Source: Isurus oxyrinchus | Lineage: Eukaryota | Assembly: GCA_026770705.1 (NCBI GenBank) | Contig: JANJGN010000010.1 | Location: 46,996,001 to 47,060,000 of the forward strand | Direction: 5' to 3' | DNA: 64,000 nucleotides | Part shown: positions 2,683 to 53,339 of the stretch, in pieces | How the letters are laid out: each line of letters starts with the position of its first letter | Position numbering within the stretch: the first letter of the stretch is position 1 | The notes under the pieces: model-generated | What the model saw: only the letters and a program-made list of their open reading frames with translations | What the model was told of the DNA's origin: nothing | Database searches by the model: none | Position numbers and translations under genes: made by a program

Positions 2683-3115
2683 AAAGCAAAAAGAAATTAA
2701 AGAAATTTGTGAACTGTCTAAAAAGGAGTATCAAACTTTCTTGGCTGGATATCATAACAAACTTAATGAAGATTTAAAGCAGCAAGAGAATTTTACTCGA
2801 TAGGAAAATGAACTGCTTGCACAAAAGAAGACAGTGGTAAACCTGTATCTCCTGGAAAAGAAAACTGAAGGCTTAAGTCATGGAAAAGAATTTAAAGATA
2901 AAGGTGATACTGAATTTAAATAGGGTGAGGTGAATCCAATTGTTATGAGGATAATTCAGAAGTTTGGCTGGTTGGAACCTTCTTCACAGACTTGGACTTT
3001 AAAAAATATGCTAACATTGAAGAAAATGGAAATCAGGAAGTAAAAACTGAACAGAATGGTTTAGCGTCTGATTTGAAAGGTCAAAACCCTGATGGCAATT
3101 AAGTATCTGACTTAA

Positions 3116-3343
3116 AAAAAGGAACTAAGGAAATTGTTGAATCCAAAGAGTAAGAAGCAATATGACAGGGGGTTTCTCCTTAAGTTACAGTACATAGCTG
3201 CTATTTCCCAGAAACCAGATGGTTTGTCAGCAGTCAGCAAAATTGTTCTTGACAAAGTTAACCAGACCAAACAAATTGTGAAAACAGTGCACAATCAAAT
3301 ACAGATTTTAAAAAATCAATTAAAAATTTATAAAGCAACATGA
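3116..3343 (+). pseudogene. Captured fragment of eIF4G (eIF4E-binding region) embedded in a decayed ORF
   Basis: KKELRKLLNPKSKKQYDRGFLLKLQYIAAISQKPDGLSAVSKIVLDKVNQTK aligns without gaps to the remembered eIF4G1/eIF4G3 4E-binding region. YxxxxLPhi motif at 3161-3181. No polypyrimidine acceptor upstream. Confidence 0.75.
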
Positions 3344-3523: not shown

Positions 3524-3640
3524 GGGCTGAATTTTTTGCTGGCGGGATTTTATGGTCCCGCCAAAATCAATGGTGTTTAGAATGGCTCACTGCATTTTAT
3601 GGCCCCGTCCCTGCCGCGATGGAATTGTAAAGTTCCAGCC
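3524..3640. mobile_element. Harbinger-type MITE
   Basis: Imperfect TIRs gggctgaattt / aagttccagcc; TAA target-site duplication at 3521-3523 and 3641-3643. Confidence 0.75.
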
Positions 3641-3724
3641 TAAATCTTAATTGTTATGGGTTAAGGCTTATAATGTTGCTAAGACATAATGTTTCATGGT
3701 GACATGTAACAAAAGGTGAAAGAA

Positions 3725-5609
3725 TATTACCTATACTATATGTATTAGGTTAGTTGTCAAAATGTTTACAATGTTGAATTACGATTTTGTTATGGAAAAA
3801 TACAGTTAGTACTGTAAATGCTTTTTTATTTTGGAGTAAGGTGTTACAAACACTGTACTTTACAAGACAGTGATGTTTTAAAATATCTCTTTTAACTTAA
3901 GGTAAAACTGACTGTTCTGAATAGAGGGGATGGTGCCCAGGCTCATGTGATCTGGCCGTCACAGGGCAAGAAACCCAAACTGAAAACTCTTGAAAATCAA
4001 ATGGCAGTTTTCACACCTTGGCATAGAGAAGGGTCAGCTGCTTTTGGAGACAGACACAGATACACAGATACCAAGAGAGTGAGTGAGAGAAGCACAATGC
4101 AGCTACTGCTGTGAAGAGCAAGGAAAAACCATTTGTGTGTTAGCAGCCAAGGGAGATGCTGATGAAAGCTGGTTCTCTGTTTGAAAAACAGAAGGTGGAA
4201 TAAGCCAGACTTTTGGAGACTTAAGAAACAAGGGAGTGAATTCTCCAGTCTGCCACCGGTGTAGTTGAAGGTGTATTTGAAGCTTGGAAAATAAAACTGG
4301 TGGCCTACCCGCCACCTTCCTGCCCACTCCCAACCTGTTAAGTAACCTTTGATGATGTCAACGATAGTTTTTTTTAATATTCATTCATGGGAATGTGGGC
4401 ATCACTGGCTAGGCCAGCATTTATGCCCATCCCTAACTGCTCTTGAGTAGGTGGCGGTGAGCTACCTTCTTGAACCACTGCAGCCCATGTAGCATAGGTA
4501 CACCCATAGTGCTGTTAGGAAGGTAGCTCCAGCATTTTCACCTTGCGGCAGTGAAGGAGCAGTGATACAGTTCCAAGTCAAGATAATGTGTGGCCTGGAG
4601 AACTTGTAGGTGGTGGGTGCTGTGAAGAGCAAGGAAAAACCATTTCTGTGTTGGCAGCCAAGGGAGATGCTGATGAGAGCTGGTTCTCTGTTTGAAAAAC
4701 AGAAGATGGAATAAGCCAGACTTTTGGAGACTTAAGAAACAAGGGAGTGAATTCTCCAGTCTGCCATCGGTGTATTTGAAGGTGGGGGCTTGTAAAATAA
4801 AACAGGTGGCCTACCCACCGCATTTCTGCCCACTCCTGACCTGTCTCCAATATTATGATGGGCAGGTAAAGCATCAGGCAGCCTGCCTGCCCTTAGGCCT
4901 ATTGAGGCCACTTAAGGGCCTTATTCCACTTCCTCCACTGTAATACATGCAGCAGGAGAAGGTGGGCTGTTTTCACTACGCAGGCTGTTTACAGGCAAGA
5001 ATGGGGGGTACCTTCTTTGGAGGATCTGCTGTGTCCATCAGAGGCATCCCCCAAGATTGTACTCCCCTTTATCCCTCCCACCCTGGTCTCTACAACATGC
5101 CCCCCCGCCCCAACCATCCGCCCTCCGCCCCCCGACTTTGCTGGGGTCTGGCAAGCCTGTCCAATATACCTGGATTATCCAGAGTCCAGGATACATCGTT
5201 CTTCTTCTCCGGAGACTGCTTGTAATCCCAGCAGTGGTCAATCGGACTGGACTTTTCAGTTGGGAAGGTTGGATAATTCATCCCCCACCACCCCCTCCCC
5301 AATACCCCGGTAAAATCAAGCCCAAGGAGTTGCCAGGGTGAAATTTGCTGGTGAAAGTTGGTTCTCAAATGCTCAGGCTGAGTGGAGTAATTTCCAAAGG
5401 ACAGTGGAGGATTCAACCTGATGTGCAGGGAGAAGTGAGCTTGCTGGGCAGATGGGAATAACATGGAACTTGTTCTTATAATTCTACCCCTCTGCCAGAA
5501 CTGTAGTGCACAGCGAAAGAAGTTCTAAGAATTATCTCAATTGGGTTAGTTGGATAATGCGAAAATGCCCTTCCTTTAGTTCGATGTATTAGTTGCCTGT
5601 TAAGTAACA
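3725..5609 (+). mobile_element. Probable LTR, interrupted by a MITE and a local duplication
   Basis: Follows a PPT-like tract, begins tattacc (decayed TG start) and ends ...gtaaca at 5609; non-coding throughout. Confidence 0.4.
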
Positions 5610-7365: not shown

Positions 7366-8743
7366 CTACAGAGAATAGGACCATAATATAATTGAGGGAG
7401 ATTGGCTCCTCTCCGACAGACATATATAAATAAAGAGCTGTAATATAAAACACCAGTAAGATAAACCATTTTGTTTTCCTTCTCAGCAGATAGCATGACC
7501 AAAGATAGCATCTTGCACCTACAACTCTGACCACAAAACCACCTTTGTCTGGAAGTTAGAAGTGGCAAATAAACATGTCCCCTACAGGACTGAAGTACTT
7601 CTGTTCAGCAGTGGAAGGATGCACAGTTATCTTTTACCCAGATATTAAAGATTTTAAAATATATACCCATGAGAGTTACAGCACAATTATTTTAATCTGC
7701 TTCCCTAAAAAAAAAGGTTGTTTACAGTAGTTTTGTACCAGAAACTTTAAGAATGGGTGGGGAAACTCCTTAGAAGTGCCTGATGCTGAAACCACTTCAG
7801 AGAGAAGCAAGGCCACACCTGCCAATCAACACAGCGACATTTTTTGCTGCCTCTTCCGCCCTCTCTATTGTTAAAAGCACATTGAGGAGGTGGTTTTAGC
7901 AGCAGCGCAGCAGGCCTGAAAAGCAGATCAGCAGAGCATTTGAAGTGAGACTACAACATAAGAGTGAGCTATTTATTAGATTGAGTTGTCACATTTCTAT
8001 ATGGCATCTAGTGGCAGGAATCTAACACTGCCTTCCATGGACAAGATTCACCTTTTGAACTGTAACTCAAAATTTTTACAAAATTTTAGGTAACTGAGAA
8101 TTCTAACAGGTCTTGGTGCAATACAACTTCTATACTGTAACTGAGCTTACTCATGTAAAATAAGAGTAAAAAAAGTTGCAAAGATGTTATGTCCAGTTAT
8201 CAAGGGCCAAGTTTTAAGATAACGGAGCAAGAAAAGTGGCACGGCTGGTCTTTACTATGGCAATGGAAGCACTGGAGGACAGCACATCATATCCTTTAAT
8301 TAACTTTCTGACTTGCCACAAACAATATGAACTTTTTGTTCGTGCAAAGAAGCAATTAGTTATTTTGTATGATTGCACGCTGAATGGGATTAGTAGGATG
8401 TAACTGATTTGCCAAACCTGCTTGACAAACTCTACAAACTCTTATGTTTGTCATGTAGTAAGATTTCTGAGCTGAGTAATGTAACTTTGAGCAAAAGGTC
8501 TCGGAAACTCTGGTTTCTGAGCAGATCTAAAAGGTAACAAATCACATGATCTACCTGTAATCTATTTTCCTCATGAAAGTTTATTTTTATAGTTTTTCTT
8601 ACTGTCATATTGATTGAAACTCTTCCTTCCATGGAATTACATAGAATTAAAAGAGTACACAGCAAAGAAGGAGGTCTTTCAGCCCACCTAGCTTATGCGG
8701 GTGTTTATATTCCAGACAAATATCCTCCCATTCCATTTACCTT

Positions 8744-9897: not shown

Positions 9898-12800
9898 TGC
9901 TTTAGAAGGTGCTAGGCAGCATTGTAGGAGGAGCCGCAGAGGTATCTGGGTATTTAAAAACTAGTTTATTTACACTATTTACAGTATGCACATAGTGAGT
10001 TATCAGGAAGCCCCTCAGGACTGCTTGTCTGTTCCCTACAGTACCTAGCATACTGCCTGACATTAGTGCCACTATGTGCTCCATAGATTAGCATATCTAT
10101 TCTGTTTTCCCTTTATACTACACCTCCCCCCCAAGTACACTATCTTTTTAACAACAATACAAAACTATCTCTAACTAGTTACATGTCCTTTGTTTTTAAG
10201 CTATTTGTATTGCTGTCCCCTTTTCCCCGACGCCCCCCACCAAATCCCCCAGTTACAGATTGAGTCTCTGAGGAGCCTTCACCACTCTGCTCGGGTGTGT
10301 TCTGGTTACTGCTCCACTGGGTCGAAGGACTGGGAGTGGGTCCTAGGGTGGGTCAATACCTTCAGAGCATCTGGAGTGTTTCAGGATTCTATTGGCCACA
10401 TTTCATGTCGTCGGAACCATGTGGTCTGGTGCAATGTGGGCTATTCTGTTTCTTCAGATTGTACCAGACAATGAGAATGACATCTTCAGCTTTTTGGTCC
10501 TGAATCTAGACTTGTTGGTCCAGTGCCAAAGATGGCAAAGCTTTTGATTTGTGCCTGGTATTGAAACATTGGTGTTATTTCTCCTGGGAGTTCAACTTCT
10601 TCGCCCTCACTGTGTTATAGTCAGCGGAGGTGATATTCTGCTGAAGGCTTGCAGGCAACAGAGGAATATATGTTTTTAAATGATGGCCCATAAGGATTTG
10701 GCTGGAGAGAATCCCTTGGCTGAGGGAGTGGCCTGATACTGCATGTGAGCCAAATGCCAATCCGAATTCTTGGATATCAGGTCCTTACTAGTGCGGATTG
10801 CTCGCTCTGCTTCCCTGTTGGCTTGTGGATAAAGAGGAGGGCTTGAGACATGAGTGAACTGCTGAAAATGGTCGTTTGCGAATAGGGGTCTGTTATCTGA
10901 AATAATTTCATCCAGAAGCCCATGGGTGTAAAAAATGATCTGTAGTGCTTTGATGACGAACTCCACTGTGGTTGTATGGAGCTTGATTATCTCTGACATT
11001 CGAGAATAATAATCAAAAATCATAAGGTAAGTCTTGCTATGGAAGTCAAAGAGGTCGCGGCCTAGCTTCTGCCATGGGTGATGAGGAAAGACAGACGGTA
11101 TCAGGGTTTGCATTGGTGCCAGAGTGCGAATGCAGGAGGTGTGGCAAGATAGGCCAAAACCCTGGACTGCTCGTTTATACCAGGCCACTACACTGATTGT
11201 AGGGCTCTCGCTCTGCATTTAGCAATGCTGAGGTGATCCCCAAGGAGAATGTGAAGAATATCTTGTCACATAGCACATGGATTGACCAAAAGATGGTCAT
11301 AAACTAGGAGGTCATCTACAATGATCAAATGGGCTCTTGGCATTTGCAGATAAGACGTCGGTAAGGTTGTATTTGGACCACCCTTAGAGACAGAACTCCA
11401 CTGTTTAACACATTTGGCATCTTCCTTTTGAGTGTGTTGAGCATCCTGGAGCTTCTTGGCAGATATGGGCAGGGGGCTCATGACGGTGGAAGAAAATGCT
11501 TCCACTTCTGACAGCAATGTAGAATCGAGGGCAACAGTGTGGTTGACCAGGGCTCTAGAGAGAGCATCAGCCATGGTTTGTGACTTCCCTGGGACACAGA
11601 CAGCTGTAAATTGGTACCGCATCAACTGGAGGTAGAATTGTTGAATTCCATCTCCATGGAATTGAGAAGTGTTATAAGGGGCTTGTGGTCTGTTTTCGTC
11701 TGGAATGGTGGCCCCATCGGGTAATCAGAAAAATGCTCGATCGCCTATGTATCCACCAGTACCTCCTTCTCAATAGTGGTATACCTTCGTTCAGTTTCCA
11801 TGAGAGCTCTTGAAGCAAAATAAACATGCTTTCTATCACCGTTCTTTTGCAGCTGTATGTGAATACCGCTGAGGCCCATAGAGGAAGCATCTGCAGTGAC
11901 AACTGTTGGCAACGTGGGGTGATAGTGCGCCAGGACATACAAGGAGATTAGGCAAGATTTGAATGAGCAAAAGGCATTGATTTGTTCCATGGCCTAGAAC
12001 CACTGTTGACCCTTCTATGAGAGATCTTTCTCTCAAGGATTCTGAGAGTGTGGCCAAGTTAAAGATAAACTTTCCCACCCGGTTTTCCATCCACATAAAA
12101 GTTGAATATCAGTGATGCACGTTAGTTGGAGAAACTCAGTGGTGGTTTTCTGAGGATCAACCGTAATACTGTGCCATTGAATGATGTGTCCAGGAATTTT
12201 ATGTTGGTTCTGGTGAACTCACACGTCATTCAGCGTGGGACCTGCTTCCTGGAGCGCCTACGGTCATGTTTGGCTCTTGTGGAACCTTGTATGAGGATGT
12301 CGTCCAAATGGTAGATAACCCCTTGACAGCCCCTCGAGGACTGTTGACATGGTATGTTGAAATATCTCAAAGGCAGACAAAATGCCAAAAGGGAGGCGGT
12401 TAAAACAAAATAGACCAAAGGGTGTGATAAAGGTCATCAGGAGCTGGATTCCGTGTGGAGGTGTATTTGTCAAAAGCTGCTGTTCTCATCGAGCTTCGTG
12501 AAAAGGATGCTATTGGCGAGCTTAGCCAAACTGTTGTCTACTGAGTGGACTTCCCTCTGAACTGCTATATTTAGCTGCATAAGATCCACACAAACTCAGA
12601 GGTGGCCATAAAGATTGGGAACGGTGATAACAGCAGAACACCAACGGGTTGGTTGTGTGACTGGGGAAATAAAGCACCTGTGTAATATGTCATCAAGTTC
12701 CTCTTTAACCTTTGGCAGTAGGGGGTGTGGCACTCTCCTAGGGGTGAACAGACAGACTGGCATGGCAACTGGGAGCAGAGAAATATGATTTTCAGTCTTT

Positions 12801-34104: not shown

Positions 34105-36571
34105 AATGAATTTCCTGTAAACTTAACCGAAGTAACAGCATTAGTACAATGTAATTTTTGGTGCTGAAGAATAGAGAAATTCAGGCACAGGTGACTTCTG
34201 ACCCTTTTAAACCATACCCAAATTTCATCAATCTTTTGCACCAATTCACTGAGATCTTAACCAAAACCCTCTGTTGCTTGTTAACATAGCCCTATTGTGC
34301 AAAGCTGCAGCTCTTGCAAACTTCTTGAATGTGTGTAAGTTCTGAATGAGTTGTAAAGTTATGTCTAAAATGAAGGCATAATAGGACCTATACTTCTAAT
34401 ACTTAAGGGGGGTGGAACAGTTGAAGCTGGATAGAAGGCCAGCAATAGATGGAGGCAAAGGAGAGATTGCAAAAGATGTCAGAAACAAAAGGTCAAAGGG
34501 GTGTTAATGTTGGTGGTACTGGCTAAATGAGGTGCTAATGGTGACATTAAGAGTAGAAAGCAGAATATGGTAATAGCCAGACCAGGGTAAGGACTCTGGA
34601 AAGAACAACATGAGCAAGTGACAGATGGCCCTAGTGGGGGTGGGGTGGGGGAAGGGTATGGTGGTGGGAAAAAAAGGTCGAAAGTAGGCTAAAAGGTGGG
34701 GTTAAAACCATGAATAAAACTGGAAATAAAGTAAATAATAATAATGAGTGGAAAAAAATAAATAAAAATAAAAAAATAAAAATGGATATTGAATGAAAGG
34801 GATCAAAAAGAGGTGAGGATGGAGAAGAGAGTTCACGATCTGAAGTTGTCAAACTCAATGTTAAGTTTAGAAGGCTGTAAAATGCCTAATCGGAAGATGA
34901 GGTGCTGTTCCTCCAGTTTGTGTTGAGCTTCACTGGAATGTTGCAGCAGGCCAAGAACAGACATGTGGGCATCAGAGAAGGATGGTGTGTTGAAATGGCA
35001 TGCAACAGAAAGGTCTGGGTCATGCTTGCAGACAGGCCGAAGGTGTTCCGCAAAGCGGTCATCCAATCTGCATTCGGTCTCTTCAATGGAGAGGAGACTG
35101 CATTGGGAACAGCAAATGCAGTAGATTTGCTTCACTTGAAAGGAGTGTTTGGGCCCTTGAATGATGAGAAGAGGGAAGTAAAGGGGCAGGTGTTGCACCT
35201 TCTATGATTGCATGGGAAGGTGCTGTGGTGGAGGGGGGGTTTGGAGGTTGAGGTGTTGGGGTGACGAAGGAGTGGACCAGGTGACCCGGAGGGAACGGTC
35301 CCTATGGAATGCCAACACTGGGGGTGAAGGGTGGTTGCATCATGTGTTTGGTGGTGGCATCATGCTGGAGCTGGCGGAAATGGCAGAGGATGATCCTTTG
35401 AATGCAGAGGCTGGTGGGATGAAAAGTGAAGACAAGGGGGACCCTATCATGGTTCTGGGAGGGGTAGGACAGTGTGAGGAAACGGGTCGGACACAGTTGA
35501 GGGCCCTGTCAACCACCATGGATGGGAAACCTCGGTTAAGGAAGAAGGAAGACATGTCAGAAGCATTGTTTTGGAAAGTGGCATCATCAGAACAGATGCG
35601 ATGGAGGTGAAGGAACTGAGAGAATGGGGTGGAGCCTTTATAAGAAGTAGGGTGTGAGGAGCTGTAGTTAAGGTAGCTGTGGGAGACGTTGGGCTTTTAA
35701 TGAATTTTGGTGGACAATCTATCATCAGAAATTGAGACAGAGAGATCAAGGAAGGGAAGGGAAGTGTCGGAGATGGACCGTGTGAAAGTGATGGAGGGGT
35801 GGAAATTGGAAACAAAATTGGTAAATTTTTCCAGGTCCAGATGAGAGCACGAAGCGGCACCGAAACAGTCATCGATGTACTGAGAAAAAAAGAGTTGTGG
35901 GAGGGGGCCTGAGTAGGACTGGAACAAGGAATGTTCCACATACCCCATAGCGAGACAGGCATAACTGGGGCCCATACGGGTACCCATAGCCACACCTTTT
36001 AATTGGAGGAAGTGCGAAAAGTTTAAGGAGAAATTGTTCAGTGGGAGAATAGGTTCAGCCAGATGGAAGGGAGTGGTGGTGGATGGGGATTATTCAGGCC
36101 TCTGTTCAAGGAAGAAGTGGAGAGCCCTCAGACCATCCTAATGGAGGATGGAGGTGTAGAGGGATTGGACATCCATGGTGAAGAGGAGGCGGTTAGGGCC
36201 AGGGAACTGGAAATTGTTGATCCAACAGAGGGTGCTGGTGAAAAGTGACTGAAGCATTCTGGGAGAAGTCAGCGCAGTCACCACGACTCAGGAGGGAATC
36301 GAGGAGAAGGACTCTTGCACTCAACATTTGAAAAAGAGTGCGGATCTTGAAGGCAGGTCAGTTGAAAAAGAGCGCGGAGATTGAAAATAAAAGGAGGGGA
36401 AGCTAAAGAGGAGTGACCAGCATGTGAGTAGCCAGTGTGTGAGTGGCCCAGTGAAGGAGTGGAGCTTTGAGGCTTTGGCTCGAGAGGCTTCAGCGAGCAG
36501 AGGCTGAGGACGAGCTTGCTCCCAGTGGGGTAGGGCTGGGTAAAGTCCTTTAAGTAAATTAGAAGTAGGTA

Positions 36572-37469
36572 ATGCAGGCAGCAGTTGGGGCAGTCGAGTG
36601 CTCCAAATGCAACATGTGGGAAGTCATGGACAGCACAATTGTCCCTGATGACTACACCTGCAAAAGGTGCATCCAGCTGCAGCTCCTGAGAAGCCGCGTT
36701 AGGGAACTAGAGATGGAGCTGGATGAACTTCGGATCATACGGGAGGCAGAGGCAGTAATAGACAGGAGTTTCAGGGAGACAGTCACCCCTAAAAGTCAGG
36801 AGGCAGGCAGCTGGGTGATTGTCAGGAGAGGGAGGGGGAGTAGACAGAAAAAGCAGAGCAACCCTGTGGTTGTTCCCATCAACAATAGGTATACCGTTTT
36901 GGATACTGTTGGTGGGGACGACCTACCAGAGACAAATTGTAGTGGTCGCGTCTCTGGCACTGAGGCTGGACCCTCAGCTCAGAAGGGAGTGAGGGAAAAG
37001 AGGAGAGCAGTAGTGATAGGGGATTCAATAGTTAGGGGGACAGACAGGAGGTTCTGTGGGAGAGATCGAGAATCCCGGATGGTCTGTTGCCTCCCTGGTG
37101 CCAAGGTCCACAATATCTCGGATCAAGTTCTCAGTATTCGCAGGAAGGAGGGTGAGCAGCCAGATGTCGTGGTCCATGTAGGGACCAATGACATGGATAG
37201 GAAAGTTGAAGGACAGGACCTCCAGGCTTACGATCTCAGGAGTGCTACCCGTGCCACGTGCTAGTGAGGCTAGAAATAGGAGGATAATGCAGCTAAATAT
37301 GTGGCTAAGGAGATGGTGCAGGAGGGAGGGCTTCATGTTTCTTGACAATTGGGCTCTGTTCCAGGGAAGGTGGGACCTGTTCCGACCGGACAGTTTGCAC
37401 TTGAATTGGAGGGGGACTAACATCCTTGTGGGTAGGTTTGCTAGTGCTGCTCCGGGGCATTTAAACTAG
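36572..37469 (+). pseudogene. CR1 ORF1 (zinc finger, coiled coil, SGNH esterase), frameshifted by a small deletion
   Basis: CSKC...CKRC, VIGDSIVRG, HVGTND, then DSLHLN in the shifted frame. Confidence 0.9.
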
Positions 37470-37471
37470 AT

Positions 37472-40391
37472 TTGCAGGGGGAGGGGAACCAGAGTGTTAG
37501 AGCAGATAGTGAGGTGGAGGAGGATAAAGGTCAAGCGAGGAATGCATGTATAGACAGAAATCAAGGGTCCGTACGTGATAGAAATGTTCTCAGGTGCATC
37601 TATTTCAATGCAAGGAGTATTGTTGGAAAGGCAGATGAGTTTAGGGCGTGGATTGGCAGGTGGGATTACGACATTATTGCTATTAGTGAGACTTGGTTGC
37701 AGGTGTGGCAGGACTGGCAGCTCAATGTTCCAGGGTTCTGTTGTTTCAGACGTGATAGAGGGGGAGGGATGAAAGGGGGAGGAGTGGCATTACTAGTCAG
37801 GGAAAATATGACAGCTATGCGTAAGCAGGACAGCTCGGAGGGCTCGTCTACAGAGGCCATATGGGTGGAGCTGAGGAATGGGAAAGGTGTGACCACACTA
37901 ATAGGGTTGTATTATAGACCCCCCAATAGTCAGAGAGAATTGGAGGAGCAAATCTGTAGAGAGATAGCAGACCGATGTAAGAAACAGAAAGTTGTGATAG
38001 TAGGAGATTTTAACTTTTCACATTTTGACTGGGATTCCCATACTGTAAAAGGGCTGGATGGCTTAGAGTTTGTCAAATGTGTTCAGGAAAGTTTTCTAAA
38101 TCAATATATAGAGGTACCAACGAGAGAGGATGCAATACCTGATCCCCTATTAGAGAACCAGACAGGTCAGGTGACGGAAGTATGTGTAGGTGAACATTTT
38201 GGGTCCAGTGACCACAATGTCACTAGTTTTAAACTAATTATGGATAAGGATAGGTCTGGTCCTCGAGTTGAGGTTCTAAATTGGAGAAAGGCCAATTTTG
38301 TGGAAATGAGGAAGGATCTAGGAAGAGTGGATTGGCATAAGCTGTTTTCTGGCAAGGATGTGTTCAGTAAGTGGAAGGCATTCAAAGGCAAAATTTTGAG
38401 AGTGCAGAGTTTGCATGTTCCTGTCAGGATTAAAGGCAAAGTTAACAGGCATAGGGAACCTTGGTTTTCAAGGGATATTGGTGATCTGGTTAAGAAGAGA
38501 GAGGTGTATAGCAGGTATAGGCAACAAGAAGCAAATGAGGTACTTGTAGAGTATAGAAAATGTATGAAAATACTAAAAATAGAACTCAGGAAGGCAAAAA
38601 GAAGACATGAGGTTGCTTTGGCAGATAATGTGAAGATAAACCCGAAAGGTTTTTACAAGTATATTAAGAGTAAAAGGATGGTAAGGAACACAATTGGTCC
38701 CCTTGAAGATCAGAGTGGTCGTCTATGTGTGGAGCCTCACGAGATGGGGGAGATCTTAAACAGTTTTTTTTGCATCAGTATTTACTCAGGAAACTGGCAT
38801 AGTGTATAAGGAAGGAGTACAAGCTGTACGATATACAAGCAGTAGTTTCATGGAACATATAGAGATTAAAGAGGAGGAGGTGCTTGCTGCCTTACAGTAA
38901 ATAAAGGTAGATAAATCCCCCGGGCCTGACATGATATTCCCCCGGACCTTGAGGGAGATTAGCGTAGAAATTGCAGGGGCCCTGGCAGAAATATTTAAAA
39001 TGTCCTTTGCCATGGATGAGGTGCTGGAGGATTGGAGGGTAACTCAAGTTGTTCCATTGTTTAAAAAAGGCTCCAAAAGTAAACCAGGTAATTACAGGCC
39101 AGTGAGCCTGACGTCAGTAGTAGGTAAATTATTGGAAAGTATTCTGAGAGATCGGATATATAATTACTTGGACAGCCAAGGGCTGATTAAGGATAGTCAG
39201 CATGGCTTTGTGCGTGGTAGGTCGTGTTTAACGAACCTTGCAGAGATTTTCGAGGAGGTTACTAAGAAAGTAGATGAAGGAAAGGCTGTGGATGTTGTCT
39301 ACATGGACTTTAGTAAGGCCTTTGACAAGGTCCCACATGGAAGGTTAGTTCAGAAGGTTCAGACACTTGGTATCCATGGAGAGGTTGTAAACTGGATTCG
39401 AAATTGGCTGTGTAGGAGAAGACAGAGAGTGGTAGTGGATGATTGCTTCTCAGACTGGAGGTCTGTGACTAGTGGTGTGCCTCAGGGATCTGTACTGGGA
39501 CCATTGTTGTTTGTTGTCTATATCAATGATTTGGATGATAATGTGGTGAATTGGATCAGCAAGTTTGCTGATGACACTAAGATTGGAGGCGTTGTGGATA
39601 GCGAGGAAGGCTTTCAAAGCTTGCAGAGAGATCTGGACCAACTGGAAAAATGGGCCAGAAAATGGCAGATGGAATTTAATGCGGAAAAGTGTGATGTGTT
39701 TCATTTTGGAAGGTCAAACCAAGGTAGGACATACACAGTAAATGTTAGGGCACTGAGGACTGCGGAGGAACAAAGGGATCTGGGAGTTCAGATACATAGT
39801 TCCCTGAAAGTGGCGTCACAGGTAGACAAGGTTGTAAAGAAAGCTTTTGGCATACTGGCCTTCATAAATCAAAGTATTGAGTATAGGAATTAGGATGTTA
39901 TGGTGAGGTTGTATAAGACATTGGTGAAACCAACTTTGGAGTATTGTGTGCAGTTCTGGTAGGATATCAATAAGATTGAGAGAGTGCAGAGAAGATTTAC
40001 TAGGATGTTGCTGGGTCTTAAGGAGTTGAGTTACAGGGAAAGATTAAACAGGTTAGGACTTTATTCCTTGGAGTGTAGAAGAATGAGGGGAGATAAGATA
40101 GAAGTTTACAAAATTATGAGGGGTATAGACAGAGTAAATGCGAGTAGGGTCTTTCCACTTAGATTAGGAGAAATAAACACAAGAGGACATGGCTTTAGGG
40201 TGAAAGGGGAAAGGTTTAGGGGGTACATTAGGGGGAACTTCTTCACTCAGAGAGTGGTGAGAGTGTGGAACAAGCTACCATCCGACGTGGTAAATGCGGG
40301 CTCACTCTTAAGTTTTAAGAATAAATTAGATAGATACATGGATGGGAGAGGTCTGGAGGGTTATGGACTAGGTGCAAGTCAATGGGACTAG
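37472..40391 (+). pseudogene. CR1 ORF2 (APE endonuclease and reverse transcriptase), disrupted
   Basis: YFNARSI, ISETWL, GDFN, SDH; NYRPVSLTSV, DFSKAFDKVPH, GVPQGSVLGP, FADD; frameshift near 38770 and internal stops. Confidence 0.93.
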
Positions 40392-41373: not shown

Positions 41374-41605
41374 AGCAAAAGCAAAATACTGCAGATGCTA
41401 GAAATTTAGAACAAGAACAAAAATACCTGGAAAAACTCAGCAGGTCTGACAGCATCTGTGGAGAGGGATACAGTTGATGTTTCGAGTCCATATGACCCTT
41501 CATCAGAATCTGATGTTCTGGTGGAGGGTCATACGGACTCGAAACGTCAACTGTATCTCTCTCCGCAGATGCTGTAAGACCTGCTGAGTTTTTCCAGGTA
41601 TTTTT
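41374..41605. mobile_element. Palindromic Penelope pLTR mini-element
   Basis: About 100-bp inverted arms; 12-bp duplication gtttcttgttaa at 41362-41373 and 41606-41617. Confidence 0.8.
41472..41510 (-). ncRNA. Minimal hammerhead ribozyme motif
   Basis: Minus strand gattCTGATGAagggtcatatggactcGAAACatcaact: intact CUGAUGA and GAAA cores with stem II. Confidence 0.6.
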
Positions 41606-44209
41606 GTTTCTTGTTAAGATGTCGGATGAGATGAATAATAAAATGAAACTGGGGCAAGGACAGCTTTGAGATAGGGTGAGTTGGTGCTGCTGGAGGGAGA
41701 GGTCAAATGTGCTCATATGGCAGCGCATGGCTCTGAGTGTGGATCTCAAGATGCGGCGAGAACAGCAGTCCAAGGAGGGTTGTATGTCCCGGAGATACCT
41801 GTAATCCTGCGTGGATTCAAAACAAGAGGGATAGAACTTCAGTTGGAATGCACATTGGGTAAGTCGGAGATGGAGACACTGAGGAAGGAAATATGGCTGT
41901 GAAAGTGAGTTTTAGTAAACACCTTGTCAAACACCAGGAGGGAAATGGAAAGTAATGAAGGTGAACAGAACACCTTCCCATGCAATCGCAGAAGGTGCAA
42001 CACCTGCCCCTTTACTTCCCCCCTCCTCACCGTCCAAGGGCCCAAACACTCCTTTCAACACTTACACTTCCCTCAATTTGGTCTACTGCATTCGCTGCTC
42101 CCAATACGGTCTCCTCTAAATTGGAGAGACCAAACGCAGACTGGGTGATCGCTTTGCAGAACACCTTTGTTCTGTCCGCAAGCATGACCCAGACCTTCCT
42201 GTCACTTGCCATTTCAACACACCATCCTGCTCTCATGCCCAGATGTCCGTCCTTGGCTGCTGCAATGTTCCAGTGAAGATCAACGCAAACTGGAGGAACA
42301 GCGCCTCATCTTCTAATAAGGCACTTTACAACCTTCTGGGCTTAACACTGAATTCAACATCTTCAGACCATGAACTTGATCCTCCATCCTCACCCCTTTT
42401 TGATCCCCTTTTTTCAATGTCTATTTTTATTTTTAAATTTTTTTCCCACTCATTTTTATTATCTTAAATTTTTTTTTCCATTTTTATTCATTGTTATATC
42501 CCCACCTTTTAGCCTATTTTCGATCTTTTTTCCCACCGCTGTCCCCTCCCCCACTCGGGCCATCTGTTGCTTGCTCATGTTGCCCTTTCTAGACTACTTA
42601 CCTAGTCCGGCTATTATCACATTCTGCTTTCTACTCTTAATGTCACCATTAGCACCTCCTTTAGCCAGTATCACTACCATTACCCTCTTTGACCTTTTGT
42701 TTATGACCTCTTTTGCAATGTCTCCTTTGCCTTCACCTATCGCTGGCCTTCTATCCAGCTTCACCGGTTCCACTCCCCTTAATCAGTATATATTTCACCA
42801 CATTTCTACTTCTCTTTAGCACTGAAGAAGAGTCATATGGACTCAGAATGTTAACTCTGTCTTTCTCTCCACAGATGTTGTCGGGCCTGTTGAGTTTTTT
42901 CAGCAATTTTTGTTTTTAAGATTTCCAGCATCCACAGTATTTTGCCTTTACCTATATTTCTAATGTCTTGTAATGTTATTTAAAAAAAAAATTCTCCTCA
43001 CTGGATCTACAATGTATTTTCAATAATTTTGCTTGCATCTTTATGGCATCACTGATTTACAGTAAAATGGAAAAACTTCCAAAATTGCGTAATTTTTGCA
43101 GATTAGGTAAAGCTAAGTTTTGATGGCTTCACATTTCAAGTTTTATAACATACAAAAGGACTTAAGGAGGTTTATGCTATTAGTTTTCCTTGGGTCACAA
43201 CTGTTTACTATTTCTATTTATGTTTATCTGTTTTTATGATCCAATGTATGCTAATTAGATTCTAAGGAAATTGCAGCATAAGCTACCAAAGGAGCACTGC
43301 CATAACTCACTGTTTCATGGTTTGCTGTTGAATTGGTTATGCTGAGTGGCACAGCTGTTGTAGAACCTATTTTCCATTGCAATAATTTGCTTACAGGCTT
43401 GCCTTACAATATAGTATGAAACCTCTTTAAAATAGTGAATATTGTCACTCAGTTCAAGGGCTTGGAGATGAAAGAAAATAATGTACTTATTTAAAATTAT
43501 GAAAAAGTAATCAGACCAACTAAAACTGTGAAGATTAAAAATATATAAATGAAAATGTCTATAACGGGTAATTACTATTTGTTAGGATTTCTGTGAATTG
43601 AATATAACCTAGTGAATATACAAAGAAGTTCTGGAGTCAAATCTATGTGGAAAAATAATAGCGAGTTAGCATCGCATGCTGTTATTAATGCGCTAGTTAG
43701 CCAAAGAGATCTTGGCAAGAAGAGATATGTCATGAGTAGCAAATCTGCAGAACATGCTTATCAATTTATGTCACCTGACTATTTATCTTGCAAACATGGC
43801 TAATTTCTCCTTTATTTTTAAGAACATGCTGAATTTACACATCAATTGCACAATAAACTCACTGCAAAAGTTAGGCTCTAATTCATCCCTCTTCTCTGTC
43901 GTTCTTGTTTCTTTTTCAGTTATCGCATCTCATTGGTTAAAGACAAGAACTACTGTTCCTATCATTTACTTAAAGTCCCAGATGCCAGCATGTACTCAAT
44001 GGGCTGAATGGCCTCCTTTTGTGCCATTCTGATTCTATGACTCTTATGACGTTATTCGCTGTAGCTGTGATTGGACTTCCACCAAGTTAAGTGCAAATTA
44101 TATTCAAGCTGAAGGATACAGGAAAATGTTTAATGTGCTCCAATAAGTCCCTTGTCTTGTTTCTGGCATACTTCGTGCAGTTAATTTTATGTTCTCATTA
44201 GGCTTGCAC

Positions 44210-50486: not shown

Positions 50487-51785
50487 AAAAATTCATTCAA
50501 AGAATGTGGGCTTCACTGGGTAGGCTAGCATTTATTGCTCATTCCTAAATGCCCTTAGCAATTAGAGAAGGTGGTTGTGAGCTGCCTTCTTGAACCACTG
50601 CAGTCCATGTGGTGTAGGTACACCCACAGTGCTGTTAGGGAGGGAGTTCCAGGATTTTGACCCAGCGACAGTGAAGGAATGGTGATATATTTCCAAGTCA
50701 GGATGGTGAGTGGCTTGGAGGGGAACTTCCAGGTGATGGTTTCCAATGTGTCTGCTGCCCTTGTTTGTCTATATGGTAGCGATCATGGGTTTGGAAGGTG
50801 CTGTCAAAGGAGCCTTGGTGAGTTTCTGCAGTGCATCTTGTAGTTGGTACACACTGCTGCTACTGTGCGTTGGTGATGGAGGCAGTGAATGTTTGTGGAT
50901 GGGGTGCCAATCAAGCGGACTGCTTTATCCTAGATGGTGTCAATCTCTTTGAATGTTGTTGGAGCTGCACTCATCCAGGCAAGGGGAGAGTATTCCATCA
51001 CATTCCTGACTTGCGCCATGTAGATTGTGCAGAGGCTTTGTGGAGTTAGGAGGTGAGCTACCCACAGCAGGATTCCCAGCTCCTGACCTGATCTTGTAAC
51101 CACAGTATTTACGTGGCTAGTCTACGATTTATCTGTTTTTCTGGAGACAATAGTGCTGCATTGAGTTCTTTTCAAAGTCTCTGGGTGGAATCGTCCCAGG
51201 TTTGCACTAAGTACAGTAGCCGGCAGGAGAAAGAATGGTTTACTTGCCAGCCACAATAGCGGCTTTTCACGCAGTATTGTCCAAATCCCACCTCATTAAT
51301 CATGCATACCTGGGAAACACGCCGTCAATGATAACCCCCAAGATGTTGATAGAGGGGGACTCAGTGATGGTAATGCCATTGAATGTCAAAGGGCAATAGT
51401 TAGATTCTCTCTTGTTGGAGGTAGTCATTGCCTGGCACTTGTGTGGCGCGAATGTTACTTGCCACTTGCCAGCCAAACCTGGATGTTGTCCAGGTCTTGC
51501 TGCATTTGGCCAGGACTGCTTCAGTATCTGAGGAGCTGCAAATGGTGCTGAACATTGTGCAATCATCAGCAAGCATCCCCACTTCTGACGTTATGATGGA
51601 AGGAACGTCATTGATGAAGCAGCTGAAGATGGTTGGGCCGAGGACACTACCCTGAGGAACTCATGCAGTGATGTCCTGGAGCCGAGATGACTGACATCCA
51701 ACAACACAACGATCTCCCTTTCTGTCAGGTATGATTCCAACCAGCAGACAGTTTTTCCCCTTATTCCCATTGACTCCAGTTAGTG
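50487..51785 (-). mobile_element. CR1-superfamily LINE (family B) inserted in the Harbinger relic
   Basis: MLADDCTMF, KWQVTFAPHKCQAM, attcattca tail. Confidence 0.88.
51124..51325. repeat. 202-bp inverted copy of 52458-52659
   Basis: Direct reverse-complement match with a few substitutions. Confidence 0.9.
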
Positions 51786-53339
51786 CGATGGCATGCTCCT
51801 CAAAGTGAGTGAGGCACCTAAAGTGGGCCACTTCACCCCTGGTCCGGGACCTCTCCCTGCTGTTGTCAACCAGCATGAAAACAGATGGGGAGAGTGCATG
51901 AAATGTTTGTATGGTGAGCAGAGCCATGGACGGGATGAGGATGCGAGCTCGAGAGGATATGAGTCTGATACAGGTGTGAGGGTGTGTGTGAGAGTTAGTG
52001 GTGTTGTCCCTTGAGGTGTGAGATCCCTGTGAATGTGTGATGGGTTTGTGGGTGTGTGAGTTGAGAGCGATGAGAAGAGTGACTTACGTTGGCAGAACGA
52101 TGAGACCATTCATGTTATTTTGGCGCCGGGTGGCTGTCCTTTTTTCCAGGGCATTGGTGCTGACCAAGGCTGCCACCACCTTCCATGCTGGATTTGTCAC
52201 CTTGCTTGCTGGTCTTCGCCCAGTGTGGGGGTAGAGGACATTACAGCAGGCATCGAAAAGGTGTTTCAGGGATGCATCACTGAATTGGGGGGGTTGCAGT
52301 CTTTTTGCCTTTCGGAGCTATGTCTTCTGTGGTAGCAGTCGTGGGCTGGAAGATCTGAGAGGTGTATGCGTGGCTGCACTTTAAATATGGCACCCGGCGT
52401 GGAGGAAGTGACAAGATGACAGTGTGGTGGGTGAACTGCAGGCCGCAAATCAGCGAAACGGCGTGTTTCCCAGGTATGCATGATTAACGAGGTGGGATTT
52501 GGACAATACTGCATGAAAAGCCGCTATTGTGGCTGGCAGGTAAAACGTTCTTTCTCCTGCCGGTTACTGTACTTAGTTCAAATCTGGGACGATTCCACCC
52601 AGAAACTTTGAAAAGAACTCAATGCAGCACTATTGTCTCTAGAAAAACAGATAAATCGTCCATTTACATCTTTAAAATCTGGATGCCGAAAGCTGTAGGA
52701 CCTCTGAGTGAAGGCAGCAGAACCACCGAATTCAGCCTGAAGCCAGTCAGGTCAACAATCTTCAAGAACTGTATACTTCTTTGATTTTTCTGAATCAAAA
52801 TTACTGAATCTGTCCTCCTCCACATCTATTTTTGAGTGTTTGAACTTCGAGTGTTTGTGTGTATAAAAGTCAGACCAGGTGAAGTACAATAAAAACTATC
52901 CTCTTTTAATTTTAAAAGCTCAAGAAAACCCGAATGATTGTTTTGTTTATGGTCACAACATTTAAGCAGTTAAACAGACACAGAATTGGCAAGTATATCC
53001 TTTTTAAAAAATAAAACCTGTTCCAGTCAAATAAGAAGAGGGAAAAGAGGGGAGCCATTCGACCCCTCCTCACCTGGTCATAACAAAGGAGAATTGAAAG
53101 ATTATGAGCAGAGCCTCTGCAATATCCACCCTTACTTTCCTCAGTAACTTAGGATGCATCCCATCCAGACTGGATAACTTCTCTATTTTGAGGACTGCCA
53201 TCTATTTAGGTTCCTTCTATATCTATTATCTACCTATTATCCAGTACCACTGCTGCTTCGTCCTTTGCTGCTACATTGGCAGCAGTCTCTCTTCTAGTCA
53301 CATACACATATGCAAAGTACACGTATAGCAACACAGCAG

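What the first reader, a model, noticed from the sequence alone, without database searches (positions are those of the whole stretch)
3116..3271. Whole eIF4E-binding module of eIF4G apparently captured inside a retroelement ORF
Seen: KKQYDRGFLLKLQYIAAISQKPDGLSAVSKIVLDKVNQ lies in an A-rich decayed reading frame between a CR1 tail and a PPT plus LTR-like segment, with no polypyrimidine acceptor and no other eIF4G sequence nearby. Known: vertebrate eIF4G3, from memory, reads [38 protein letters not shown]; by my count about 23 of 38 positions are identical with no gaps. The match covers the canonical YxxxxLPhi motif, the QKPxGL linker and the non-canonical hydrophobic motif, and changes fall mainly at non-motif positions. 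Inference: an LTR retroelement acquired just this module in frame in an accessory coiled-coil-like protein. It could have acted as a 4E-BP-like decoy or recruited eIF4E to element RNA. I know of no described vertebrate retrotransposon with this. This copy is dead (stop codons flank it).
Basis: partly seen in the sequence, partly recalled or inferred. Interest (0 to 1): 0.85.

Follow-up and report, generated by a model that had tools for sequence, protein, structure and literature searches.

The report
Shark retrotransposon captured eIF4E-binding module
An ancient shark jumping-gene family, now more than a hundred broken copies, carries spliced pieces of two host genes, including the part of translation factor eIF4G3 that grips the cap-binding protein eIF4E; that part shows signs of selection while the element was spreading, so the element likely used it to control translation.

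Summary
The window holds the 3' end of one decayed copy of an LTR family (151 matches from 150 of 483 candidates scored). Fuller copies read LTR-gag-protease-CEP152 piece-EIF4G3 piece-CEP152 piece-stop-LTR on a Gmr1-like Gypsy backbone lacking integrase and RT. Both host pieces lack their introns and join at 7-9 nt microhomologies, so spliced mRNAs were captured; one copy keeps the CEP152-only, pre-eIF4G3 state. Seven of nine junction tallies are mostly in frame. On the element-only branch to the window's subfamily no stop was fixed among 132 changes, and the 4E-binding stretch has 4 replacement versus 7 silent changes (omega 0.17, p 0.005; other captured parts 0.55), with all seven motif and contact residues unchanged. 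That it is the most constrained part is borderline (p 0.008-0.09 by method). Binding and mechanism are untested; no intact copy was seen. Best reading: a Gag-linked, 4E-BP-like decoy. The capture route is known (Bs1, Tan 2016); a selected translation-factor module in a vertebrate retrotransposon was not found in nine paper searches.

The parts
2683..2889 (+). Captured CEP152 piece a (about aa 1104-1174 of P0022), coiled coil; cut at its 5' side by a LINE-like repeat, so gag, protease and 5' LTR are missing here
   Evidence: 75% nt identity to spliced host CEP152; no gag or protease hit in the window or 4 kb upstream
2884..2988 (+). Start of captured EIF4G3 plus a net 33-nt insert resembling the element's own protease-integrase linker (borders approximate)
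   Evidence: alignment with other copies; best local match to the same linker position in 5 of 8 autonomous relatives, weak scores
2989..3330 (+). Captured spliced EIF4G3 (about aa 667-796 of P0009) with the subfamily's 24-nt deletion; host exon joints at 3121/3123 and 3256/3257; 3' border approximate
   Evidence: host introns of 3685 and 11933 nt absent
3161..3181 (+). Canonical eIF4E-binding motif YxxxxL-phi, intact in this copy
   Evidence: motif definition PMC8558276
3224..3247 (+). Non-canonical hydrophobic motif; L, V, I, V at the positions of human L633, I636, V639, V640
   Evidence: ungapped alignment to 5T46 chain B; residues named in PMC8558276
3345..3523 (+). Captured CEP152 piece b (about aa 1362-1420), ending just before the CEP63-binding coil; many copies share a stop right behind it
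3524..3650 (+). Unrelated high-copy insertion, private to this locus among the fetched copies
   Evidence: gap in all family matches; depth over 100-fold above flanks
3651..3918 (+). 3' internal non-coding region of the element
   Evidence: matches many copies
3919..3930 (+). Polypurine tract
   Evidence: sequence; similar purine runs precede the 3' LTR in L035, L105, L140, L145, L180
3931..4203 (+). 3' LTR, part that could be traced; true end not fixed
   Evidence: matches both the upstream and the downstream repeat of L033 and L036 at 61-68%

Best explanation
The window holds a decayed 3' fragment of a non-autonomous Gmr1-like LTR retrotransposon carrying spliced CEP152 and EIF4G3 pieces behind gag-protease, and its protein likely acted as a Gag-linked eIF4E-binding decoy that would shift capped element RNA from translation towards packaging. 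Shown: architecture, intron loss, microhomologies, nested subfamilies, mostly in-frame junctions, depletion of replacement changes and stops on the element-only branch. Inferred: (1) template switching during reverse transcription, CEP152 first, EIF4G3 second; (2) one polyprotein made per Gag, with RT and integrase borrowed from autonomous relatives; (3) the module bound eIF4E, because both motifs were kept while the eIF4A/eIF3-binding MIF4G domain was never captured, so it can compete with eIF4G but not build an initiation complex; (4) the coiled coil would add avidity and Gag's RNA binding would aim it, as with Cup or Maskin (recalled analogy). My odds: capture and order 0.95; translated chimeric ORF under selection 0.85; eIF4E binding as a selected trait 0.6; repression for packaging rather than another use 0.4.
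For: Spliced capture: three EIF4G3 exons joined without their 3.7 and 11.9 kb introns; no copy's match runs on into an intron flank beyond a few bases; CEP152 exons likewise. Shared 7-nt and 9-nt words at the two switch points. Pre-capture form L145 has CEP152 aa 939-1533 unbroken between protease and an RNase H tail, inside paired repeats. In-frame tallies: protease-CEP152 11 of 18, CEP152 132-nt deletion 22 of 26, CEP152-EIF4G3 14 of 17, across the 33-nt insert 4 of 5, 24-nt deletion 41 of 45, EIF4G3-CEP152b 12 of 12, CEP152b deletion 6 of 7, trimmed EIF4G3-CEP152 8 of 10, against a chance level of 0.42-0.57 for 5-8 nt words. Stem versus private changes: 4E stretch 4:7 versus 548:165 (omega 0.17, p 0.005), other captured parts 81:40 versus 1826:492 (0.55, p 0.003); stable over 4 of 4 threshold sets and absent in both shifted frames. 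No fixed stop among 132 stem changes, while 6.5% of private changes make stops (P 1.4e-4). Controls: terminal K0/K4 0.96-1.03, host branch 0.43; gag and protease constrained on the same stem (P 0.006, 0.005). The four replacements hit W82, E96, I104 and I125 of my host numbering, none of Y, L, L, L, I, V, V. Protease aspartate present in 19 of 23 element rows shown. In yeast, Ty3 transposition falls 20-fold without the 4E-BP Eap1 (PMC4589538 table).
Against: No binding, expression or structure test was made, and no intact copy was seen. Only 11 stem changes underlie the 4E result. Pooled K0/K4 on the stem is 0.79 (P 0.15) and 0.23 for the 4E stretch only at P 0.042; by codon position the 4E stretch gives P 0.089. 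The best 50-codon window coincides with the module only at P 0.059, the best 34-codon window lies in CEP152a (P 0.075), and N:S for 4E versus the rest gives p 0.053. The long CEP152a-to-EIF4G3 span is in frame in only 13 of 33 copies and EIF4G3-to-RNase H tail in 2 of 8; the first is partly an A-run short by one base in 10 of 26 scored copies, not clustered on the tree (8 changes versus 8.2 shuffled). The canonical motif is intact in only 24 of 56 gap-free copies. Two copies (L148/L199, L177/L213) lost the module by clean deletion. In the Ty3 paper loss of Eap1 lowered RNA and Gag and left packaging near normal, which does not fit a packaging switch. Most copies were found with queries containing the module, so retention counts are biased.
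Confidence: 0.5

Rival explanations
1. Passenger in a kept frame: selection only kept the gag-protease ORF open to its 3' stop (to avoid decay of the RNA or an unstable polyprotein); the eIF4G3 piece is filler and its extra constraint is chance.
For: All captured parts except the EIF4G3 tail show some constraint (omega 0.3-0.6); a CEP152 window is as conserved; several 4E-versus-rest tests are borderline; 14 of 17 young Drosophila LTR retrocopies keep the parental frame anyway (PMC5131818).
Against: Avoiding stops alone would not deplete missense changes six-fold; the replacement rate in the 4E stretch is 0.033 versus 0.108 elsewhere (p 0.008) with equal silent rates; the adjacent EIF4G3 tail is neutral (omega 1.05) and the exon beyond it was deleted.
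Confidence: 0.25
2. Recruiter: the module bound eIF4E to favour the element's own translation, cap protection or co-location with translating helper RNAs, not to repress.
For: Same conservation data as the best explanation; Ty3 RNA and Gag fall without Eap1 or eIF4G1.
Against: The capture ends at aa 844 at most, before MIF4G (866-1090), so it cannot recruit eIF4A or eIF3 itself (established domain roles).
Confidence: 0.17
3. Host-selected master: the constraint acted on one domesticated chimeric gene that served the host (for example as a dominant-negative Gag) and was retrocopied as a by-product.
For: Long stems with short internal branches also fit few source loci.
Against: No intact or conserved locus was seen among the scored matches and no chimeric protein among 100 library hits; successive subfamilies each amplified with LTRs.
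Confidence: 0.06
4. Ordinary processed pseudogene or stray exon of an eIF4G paralogue.
For: Introns are missing, as in any retrocopy.
Against: Over 100 dispersed copies share the same chimeric junctions with CEP152, gag, protease and LTRs; flanks do not follow EIF4G3 mRNA.
Confidence: 0.02

Closest known systems
LTR-mediated retroposition in animals (Tan et al. 2016, PMC5131818; passages read)
   Same: Internal element ORFs replaced by partial mRNA, short microsimilarity at switch points, several parental genes, further rounds as a non-autonomous element.
   Different: Those cases are young retrocopies. Here the chimera amplified to over 100 copies through nested subfamilies and shows purifying selection on the captured sequence.
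Maize Bs1 (review PMC13317346; passages read)
   Same: LTR element with pieces of several host mRNAs forming one hybrid ORF; non-random mutation of the captured piece is reported (title of a cited reference only).
   Different: Plant; captured ATPase and glycanase pieces, described as a new gene potentially involved in host development. Here a vertebrate Gypsy element with a translation-control motif fused behind gag-protease.
4E-binding proteins and the eIF4G-eIF4E complex 5T46 (review PMC8558276; passages read)
   Same: Canonical motif, linker and non-canonical motif present, without MIF4G.
   Different: Derived from eIF4G3 itself, not from a 4E-BP gene; binding untested; encoded by a mobile element.
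Gmr1-like Ty3/Gypsy elements (SCAN-bearing gag: PMC4131045 passages; integrase-before-RT order and the name recalled)
   Same: gag and protease align to autonomous relatives with SCAN, integrase, RT and RNase H in that order.
   Different: Integrase, RT and most of RNase H are replaced by host-derived sequence.

Membership tests
Gmr1-like Ty3/Gypsy LTR retrotransposon | Paired LTRs around the internal region | tested here: met
   Direct repeats of 270-900 nt at 68-78% flank L032, L035, L099, L102, L104, L105, L143, L145, L180; the window has only the 3' LTR; many other copies show no pair within 10 kb
Gmr1-like Ty3/Gypsy LTR retrotransposon | SCAN-type gag followed by aspartic protease | tested here: met
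   SCAN E 2e-6 in relative L166; element copies align to that gag and to the protease region; Pfam did not recognise the protease itself
Gmr1-like Ty3/Gypsy LTR retrotransposon | pol with integrase upstream of RT and RNase H | tested here: not met
   Met in autonomous relatives L165, L166, L167, L172, but the family carries only an RNase H tail in some copies: a non-autonomous derivative, not a full member
Gmr1-like Ty3/Gypsy LTR retrotransposon | Placement in the clade by RT phylogeny | not tested
   The family has no RT; no tree was built for the relatives' RT
Gmr1-like Ty3/Gypsy LTR retrotransposon | Primer-binding site, PPT, target-site duplication | tested here: inconclusive
   PPT seen; a G-rich motif follows the 5' LTR in L032, L099, L102 as in relative L166, tRNA not identified; ends too decayed to call duplications
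Endogenous retrovirus | env and retroviral RT-RNase H-integrase order | tested here: not met
   Relatives have integrase before RT; the internal region is accounted for by gag, protease and host pieces; no dedicated env search was run
LTR-mediated retrocopy (Tan 2016 type) | Intron-less host mRNA replaces internal ORFs | tested here: met
LTR-mediated retrocopy (Tan 2016 type) | Microsimilarity at switch points | tested here: met
   7 nt at CEP152-EIF4G3 and 9 nt at EIF4G3-CEP152; the protease-CEP152 switch was not resolved
4E-binding protein (functional class) | Canonical YxxxxL-phi plus non-canonical hydrophobic motif | tested here: met
   Present in the window copy and unchanged on the subfamily stem
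4E-binding protein (functional class) | Lacks the eIF4A/eIF3 scaffold domains | tested here: met
   Capture ends at aa 844 at most; MIF4G starts at 866
4E-binding protein (functional class) | Binds eIF4E and competes with eIF4G | not tested
   No complex prediction or assay was run
Processed pseudogene of EIF4G3 | Flanks follow the parental mRNA; independent single insertion | tested here: not met
   Flanks are CEP152 and element sequence shared by dozens of copies

The most novel reading that the evidence does not exclude
A vertebrate LTR retrotransposon built, by two mRNA captures, its own oligomeric eIF4E-binding protein fused to Gag-protease, and kept it under selection through several subfamily waves because gripping the cap-binding protein helped it replicate: a transposon-encoded 4E-BP made from eIF4G.
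Probability: 0.55. Interest if true: 0.88.

Novelty: new variant of a known kind. Interest (0 to 1): 0.72.

Why it matters
Host-gene capture by animal LTR elements is usually read as a source of retrocopies for the host. This family gives a resolved series (pre-capture, capture, trimming, burst) in which the captured host sequence appears selected for the element's own benefit, like an accessory gene. If the module bound eIF4E, it points to cap-binding control as a limiting step for LTR elements and makes the open question of how genomic RNA is split between translation and packaging testable with a natural, element-encoded handle. It also shows a scaffold turned into a probable inhibitor by truncation. 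Limits: the family looks extinct in this genome and function rests on sequence evolution alone.

Tried and rejected
Genome search with Pfam PF21140 found nothing and its control did not ring: uninformative. Pfam on 7 decayed element ORFs gave no hit over cut-off. Search for an annotated chimeric protein: none among 322 candidates, 19 hits that are all shark eIF4G3, or 100 representative hits checked against gag, protease, CEP152 and RNase H; these libraries hold predicted proteins, so this is weak evidence. I first took L093 for a host gene; flanking repeats and about 20 similar loci show it is an element copy. I first noted the genome as Cetorhinus; its CEP152 is only 98.6% identical, so it is a close lamniform relative. 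Centrosome targeting through CEP63 as the main function was rejected: the CEP63-binding coil (aa 1424-1474) is present in L145, L142 and partly L143 and lost in the later subfamilies. No RNA holder was listed. A complex prediction was not run: no eIF4E sequence was in hand and a pass would echo 5T46. Earlier scan findings: none by sequence or words; the 8 shown by place concern Penelope elements. Target-site duplications could not be called. Repbase and Dfam could not be searched, so the family may be catalogued as a repeat. No supplements were opened.

Full report
Observation. The peptide is in the window at 3116-3340 between stops. It aligns without gaps to human eIF4G1 in the eIF4E complex 5T46 (E 2.5e-10) and weakly to Pfam PF21140 (E 0.0017). 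It is not single-copy: a DNA search gave 40 matches (40 of 170 candidates scored), the other 39 at 71-81%, and a protein search with a sister copy gave 151 matches (150 of 483 scored). The 30 loci translated have short open frames around the motif (at most 154 codons); the longest listed is 289.

Donor 1. A 154-residue sister frame retrieves only shark eIF4G3 proteins (19 of 173 candidates). This genome's EIF4G3 is on C15 and EIF4G1 on C2. The element matches EIF4G3 across exon joints whose introns are 3685 and 11933 nt, and matches to genomic exon flanks stop at the exon edges. The window copy is 69% identical over 2989-3276, with joints at 3121/3123 and 3256/3257.

Donor 2. The coiled-coil flanks match separate exons of a gene on C25 (76-84% nt), which is CEP152 (98.6% to the Cetorhinus protein over the region, so the host is inferred to be a lamniform shark).

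Backbone. Ten-kilobase flanks show gag, a zinc knuckle, protease, in some copies an RNase H tail, and paired repeats. Relatives found with the protease carry SCAN-gag, integrase, RT and RNase H in that order. That order marks the Gmr1 group (recalled); SCAN in Gmr elements is stated in PMC4131045 (passages). The family has no integrase or RT in any mapped copy.

History. Mapping 86 loci on the two host coding sequences gives a series. L145: gag-protease-CEP152 aa 939-1533-RNase H tail, no EIF4G3. Type B (17 loci, assigned by me from structure; some partial): EIF4G3 aa 643-844 from four exons replaces CEP152 aa about 1175-1259, with 7-nt and 9-nt shared words at the switch points. Type A (55 loci, including the window): a 33-nt net insert, a 24-nt deletion, EIF4G3 cut at about aa 796, then either CEP152 aa about 1362-1420 and a stop shared by many copies, or a short CEP152 remnant and the RNase H tail. 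The DNA tree (rows with at least 400 aligned bases) nests type A in type B, with two stems of 0.071 and 0.048 at 100% support, terminal branches near 0.15 and a host branch of 0.069. Among 29 element loci retrieved with host CEP152, independent of the module, 25 carry some EIF4G3 and 1 is the pre-capture form; 15 cover most of the module, 4 part of it, 6 none within 1.5 kb, and 3 end before the junction (my reading; two loci are duplicates). A protein tree puts 9 early copies inside galeomorph sharks (100/100) and outside the carpet, mackerel and ground shark group (86/97), with horn shark unresolved (85/83) and an unsettled bootstrap. The window insertion is shared with a second organism: a 619-nt contig across the 5' border differs at 10 sites in 2 of 2 runs laid.

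Was it translated? Junction phases: 11 of 18, 22 of 26, 14 of 17, 4 of 5, 41 of 45 (4 of these are type B rows with other indels), 12 of 12, 6 of 7 and 8 of 10 in frame. Against: 13 of 33 over the long type A span, 2 of 8 into the RNase H tail and 0 of 1 in L153. Chance is 0.42-0.57 for 5-8 nt shared words, not one third. The long span contains an A-run short by one base in 10 of 26 hand-scored copies; the label is not clustered on the tree, which fits slippage after insertion. No codon reads stop in half or more of the 51 core type A copies; the highest are 27-42%, four of five at CGA codons. With 6.5% of private changes making stops, zero in 132 stem changes has P 1.4e-4.

Selection. Comparing changes shared by core type A (51 copies) but not type B with private changes: 4E stretch 4 replacement to 7 silent versus 548 to 165 (omega 0.17, p 0.005); remaining captured sequence 81 to 40 versus 1826 to 492 (0.55, p 0.003); EIF4G3 tail 1.05. 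This holds in 4 of 4 threshold sets, vanishes in both shifted frames and recurs only in the antisense frame that shares the wobble position. Distance methods are weaker: stem K0/K4 0.23 for the 4E stretch (P 0.042, 19 fourfold sites) and 0.79 pooled (P 0.15), with terminal branches at 0.96-1.03 and the host at 0.43 as controls. By codon position P is 0.089 for the 4E stretch, 0.045 for CEP152a, 0.006 for gag and 0.005 for protease, the last two filtered towards conserved codons and with only 3 and 5 comparison copies. That the module is more constrained than the rest: replacement rate p 0.008, N:S p 0.053, window scan P 0.059, and a CEP152 window is as low. None of the four stem replacements touches the canonical Y, L, L or the positions of L633, I636, V639, V640 named in PMC8558276.

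Mechanism (inferred). Template switching in the particle put CEP152 and then EIF4G3 mRNA in place of integrase and RT, as described by Tan et al. (PMC5131818, passages). The element still made Gag and protease (aspartate present in 19 of 23 rows) and would borrow RT and integrase. The C-terminal product has both eIF4E-binding motifs but no MIF4G (aa 866-1090), the make-up of a competitor of eIF4G. Linked to Gag and multimerised by the coil, it would most simply take capped element RNA out of translation and towards assembly. Ty3 needs the yeast 4E-BP Eap1 (20-fold), although there through RNA and Gag levels, not packaging (PMC4589538, passages). Rivals: passenger in a kept frame, recruiter, host-selected master gene.

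Novelty. The route is known (Tan 2016; maize Bs1 in PMC13317346, passages). Nine paper searches (listings and abstract starts seen) showed no retrotransposon with an eIF4G-derived eIF4E-binding module, and none holds CEP152, retrotransposon and shark together. Subscription papers, Repbase and Dfam were not searchable. Verdict: real, a new variant of a known kind, interest 0.72; function untested.

Noticed in passing
window 36569-39893 (+): Long LINE-like element: a 231-codon frame followed by 454- and 330-codon endonuclease- and RT-like frames (CR1/L2 label recalled).
   Followed up: no
window 10676-11724 (-): Two frames that look like integrase and pol fragments of another LTR element (read by eye).
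   Followed up: no
window 41416-41608 and 51124-52659: Palindrome with 93-nt arms 7 nt apart (92%), beside a Penelope-like frame; and 202-nt inverted arms at 95%, 1132 nt apart.
   Followed up: no
window 4107-4338 and 4618-4844: About 230-nt direct duplication (91%) that includes part of the 3' LTR and brackets another repeat.
   Followed up: no
L093 about 7880-8640: The 3' LTR region is followed by its own inverted copy, forming a long hairpin (read); shorter inversions at the same LTR border appear in L142 and L143.
   Followed up: no
L145, L142, L143 versus other copies: The CEP63-binding coil of CEP152 (aa 1424-1474) is in the earliest forms and lost later, with the shared stop just before it.
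   Followed up: partly
window 2720-2870; host CEP152 aa about 1130-1165: A CEP152-derived window has as few stem replacements as the 4E module: a possible second selected part.
   Followed up: partly
L153 1080-2870 and 5100-8720: An intermediate-type and a type A copy lie in tandem 5 kb apart.
   Followed up: partly
L013/L014 and L203/L204: Pairs of near-identical loci involving small unplaced contigs, probably assembly duplicates.
   Followed up: no
EIF4G3 codon for the motif arginine (host codon 95): The arginine survives in 70% of type A but 6% of type B copies; the host codon is CGG, so CpG decay in B and a CpG-free codon in A is the likely reason.
   Followed up: partly
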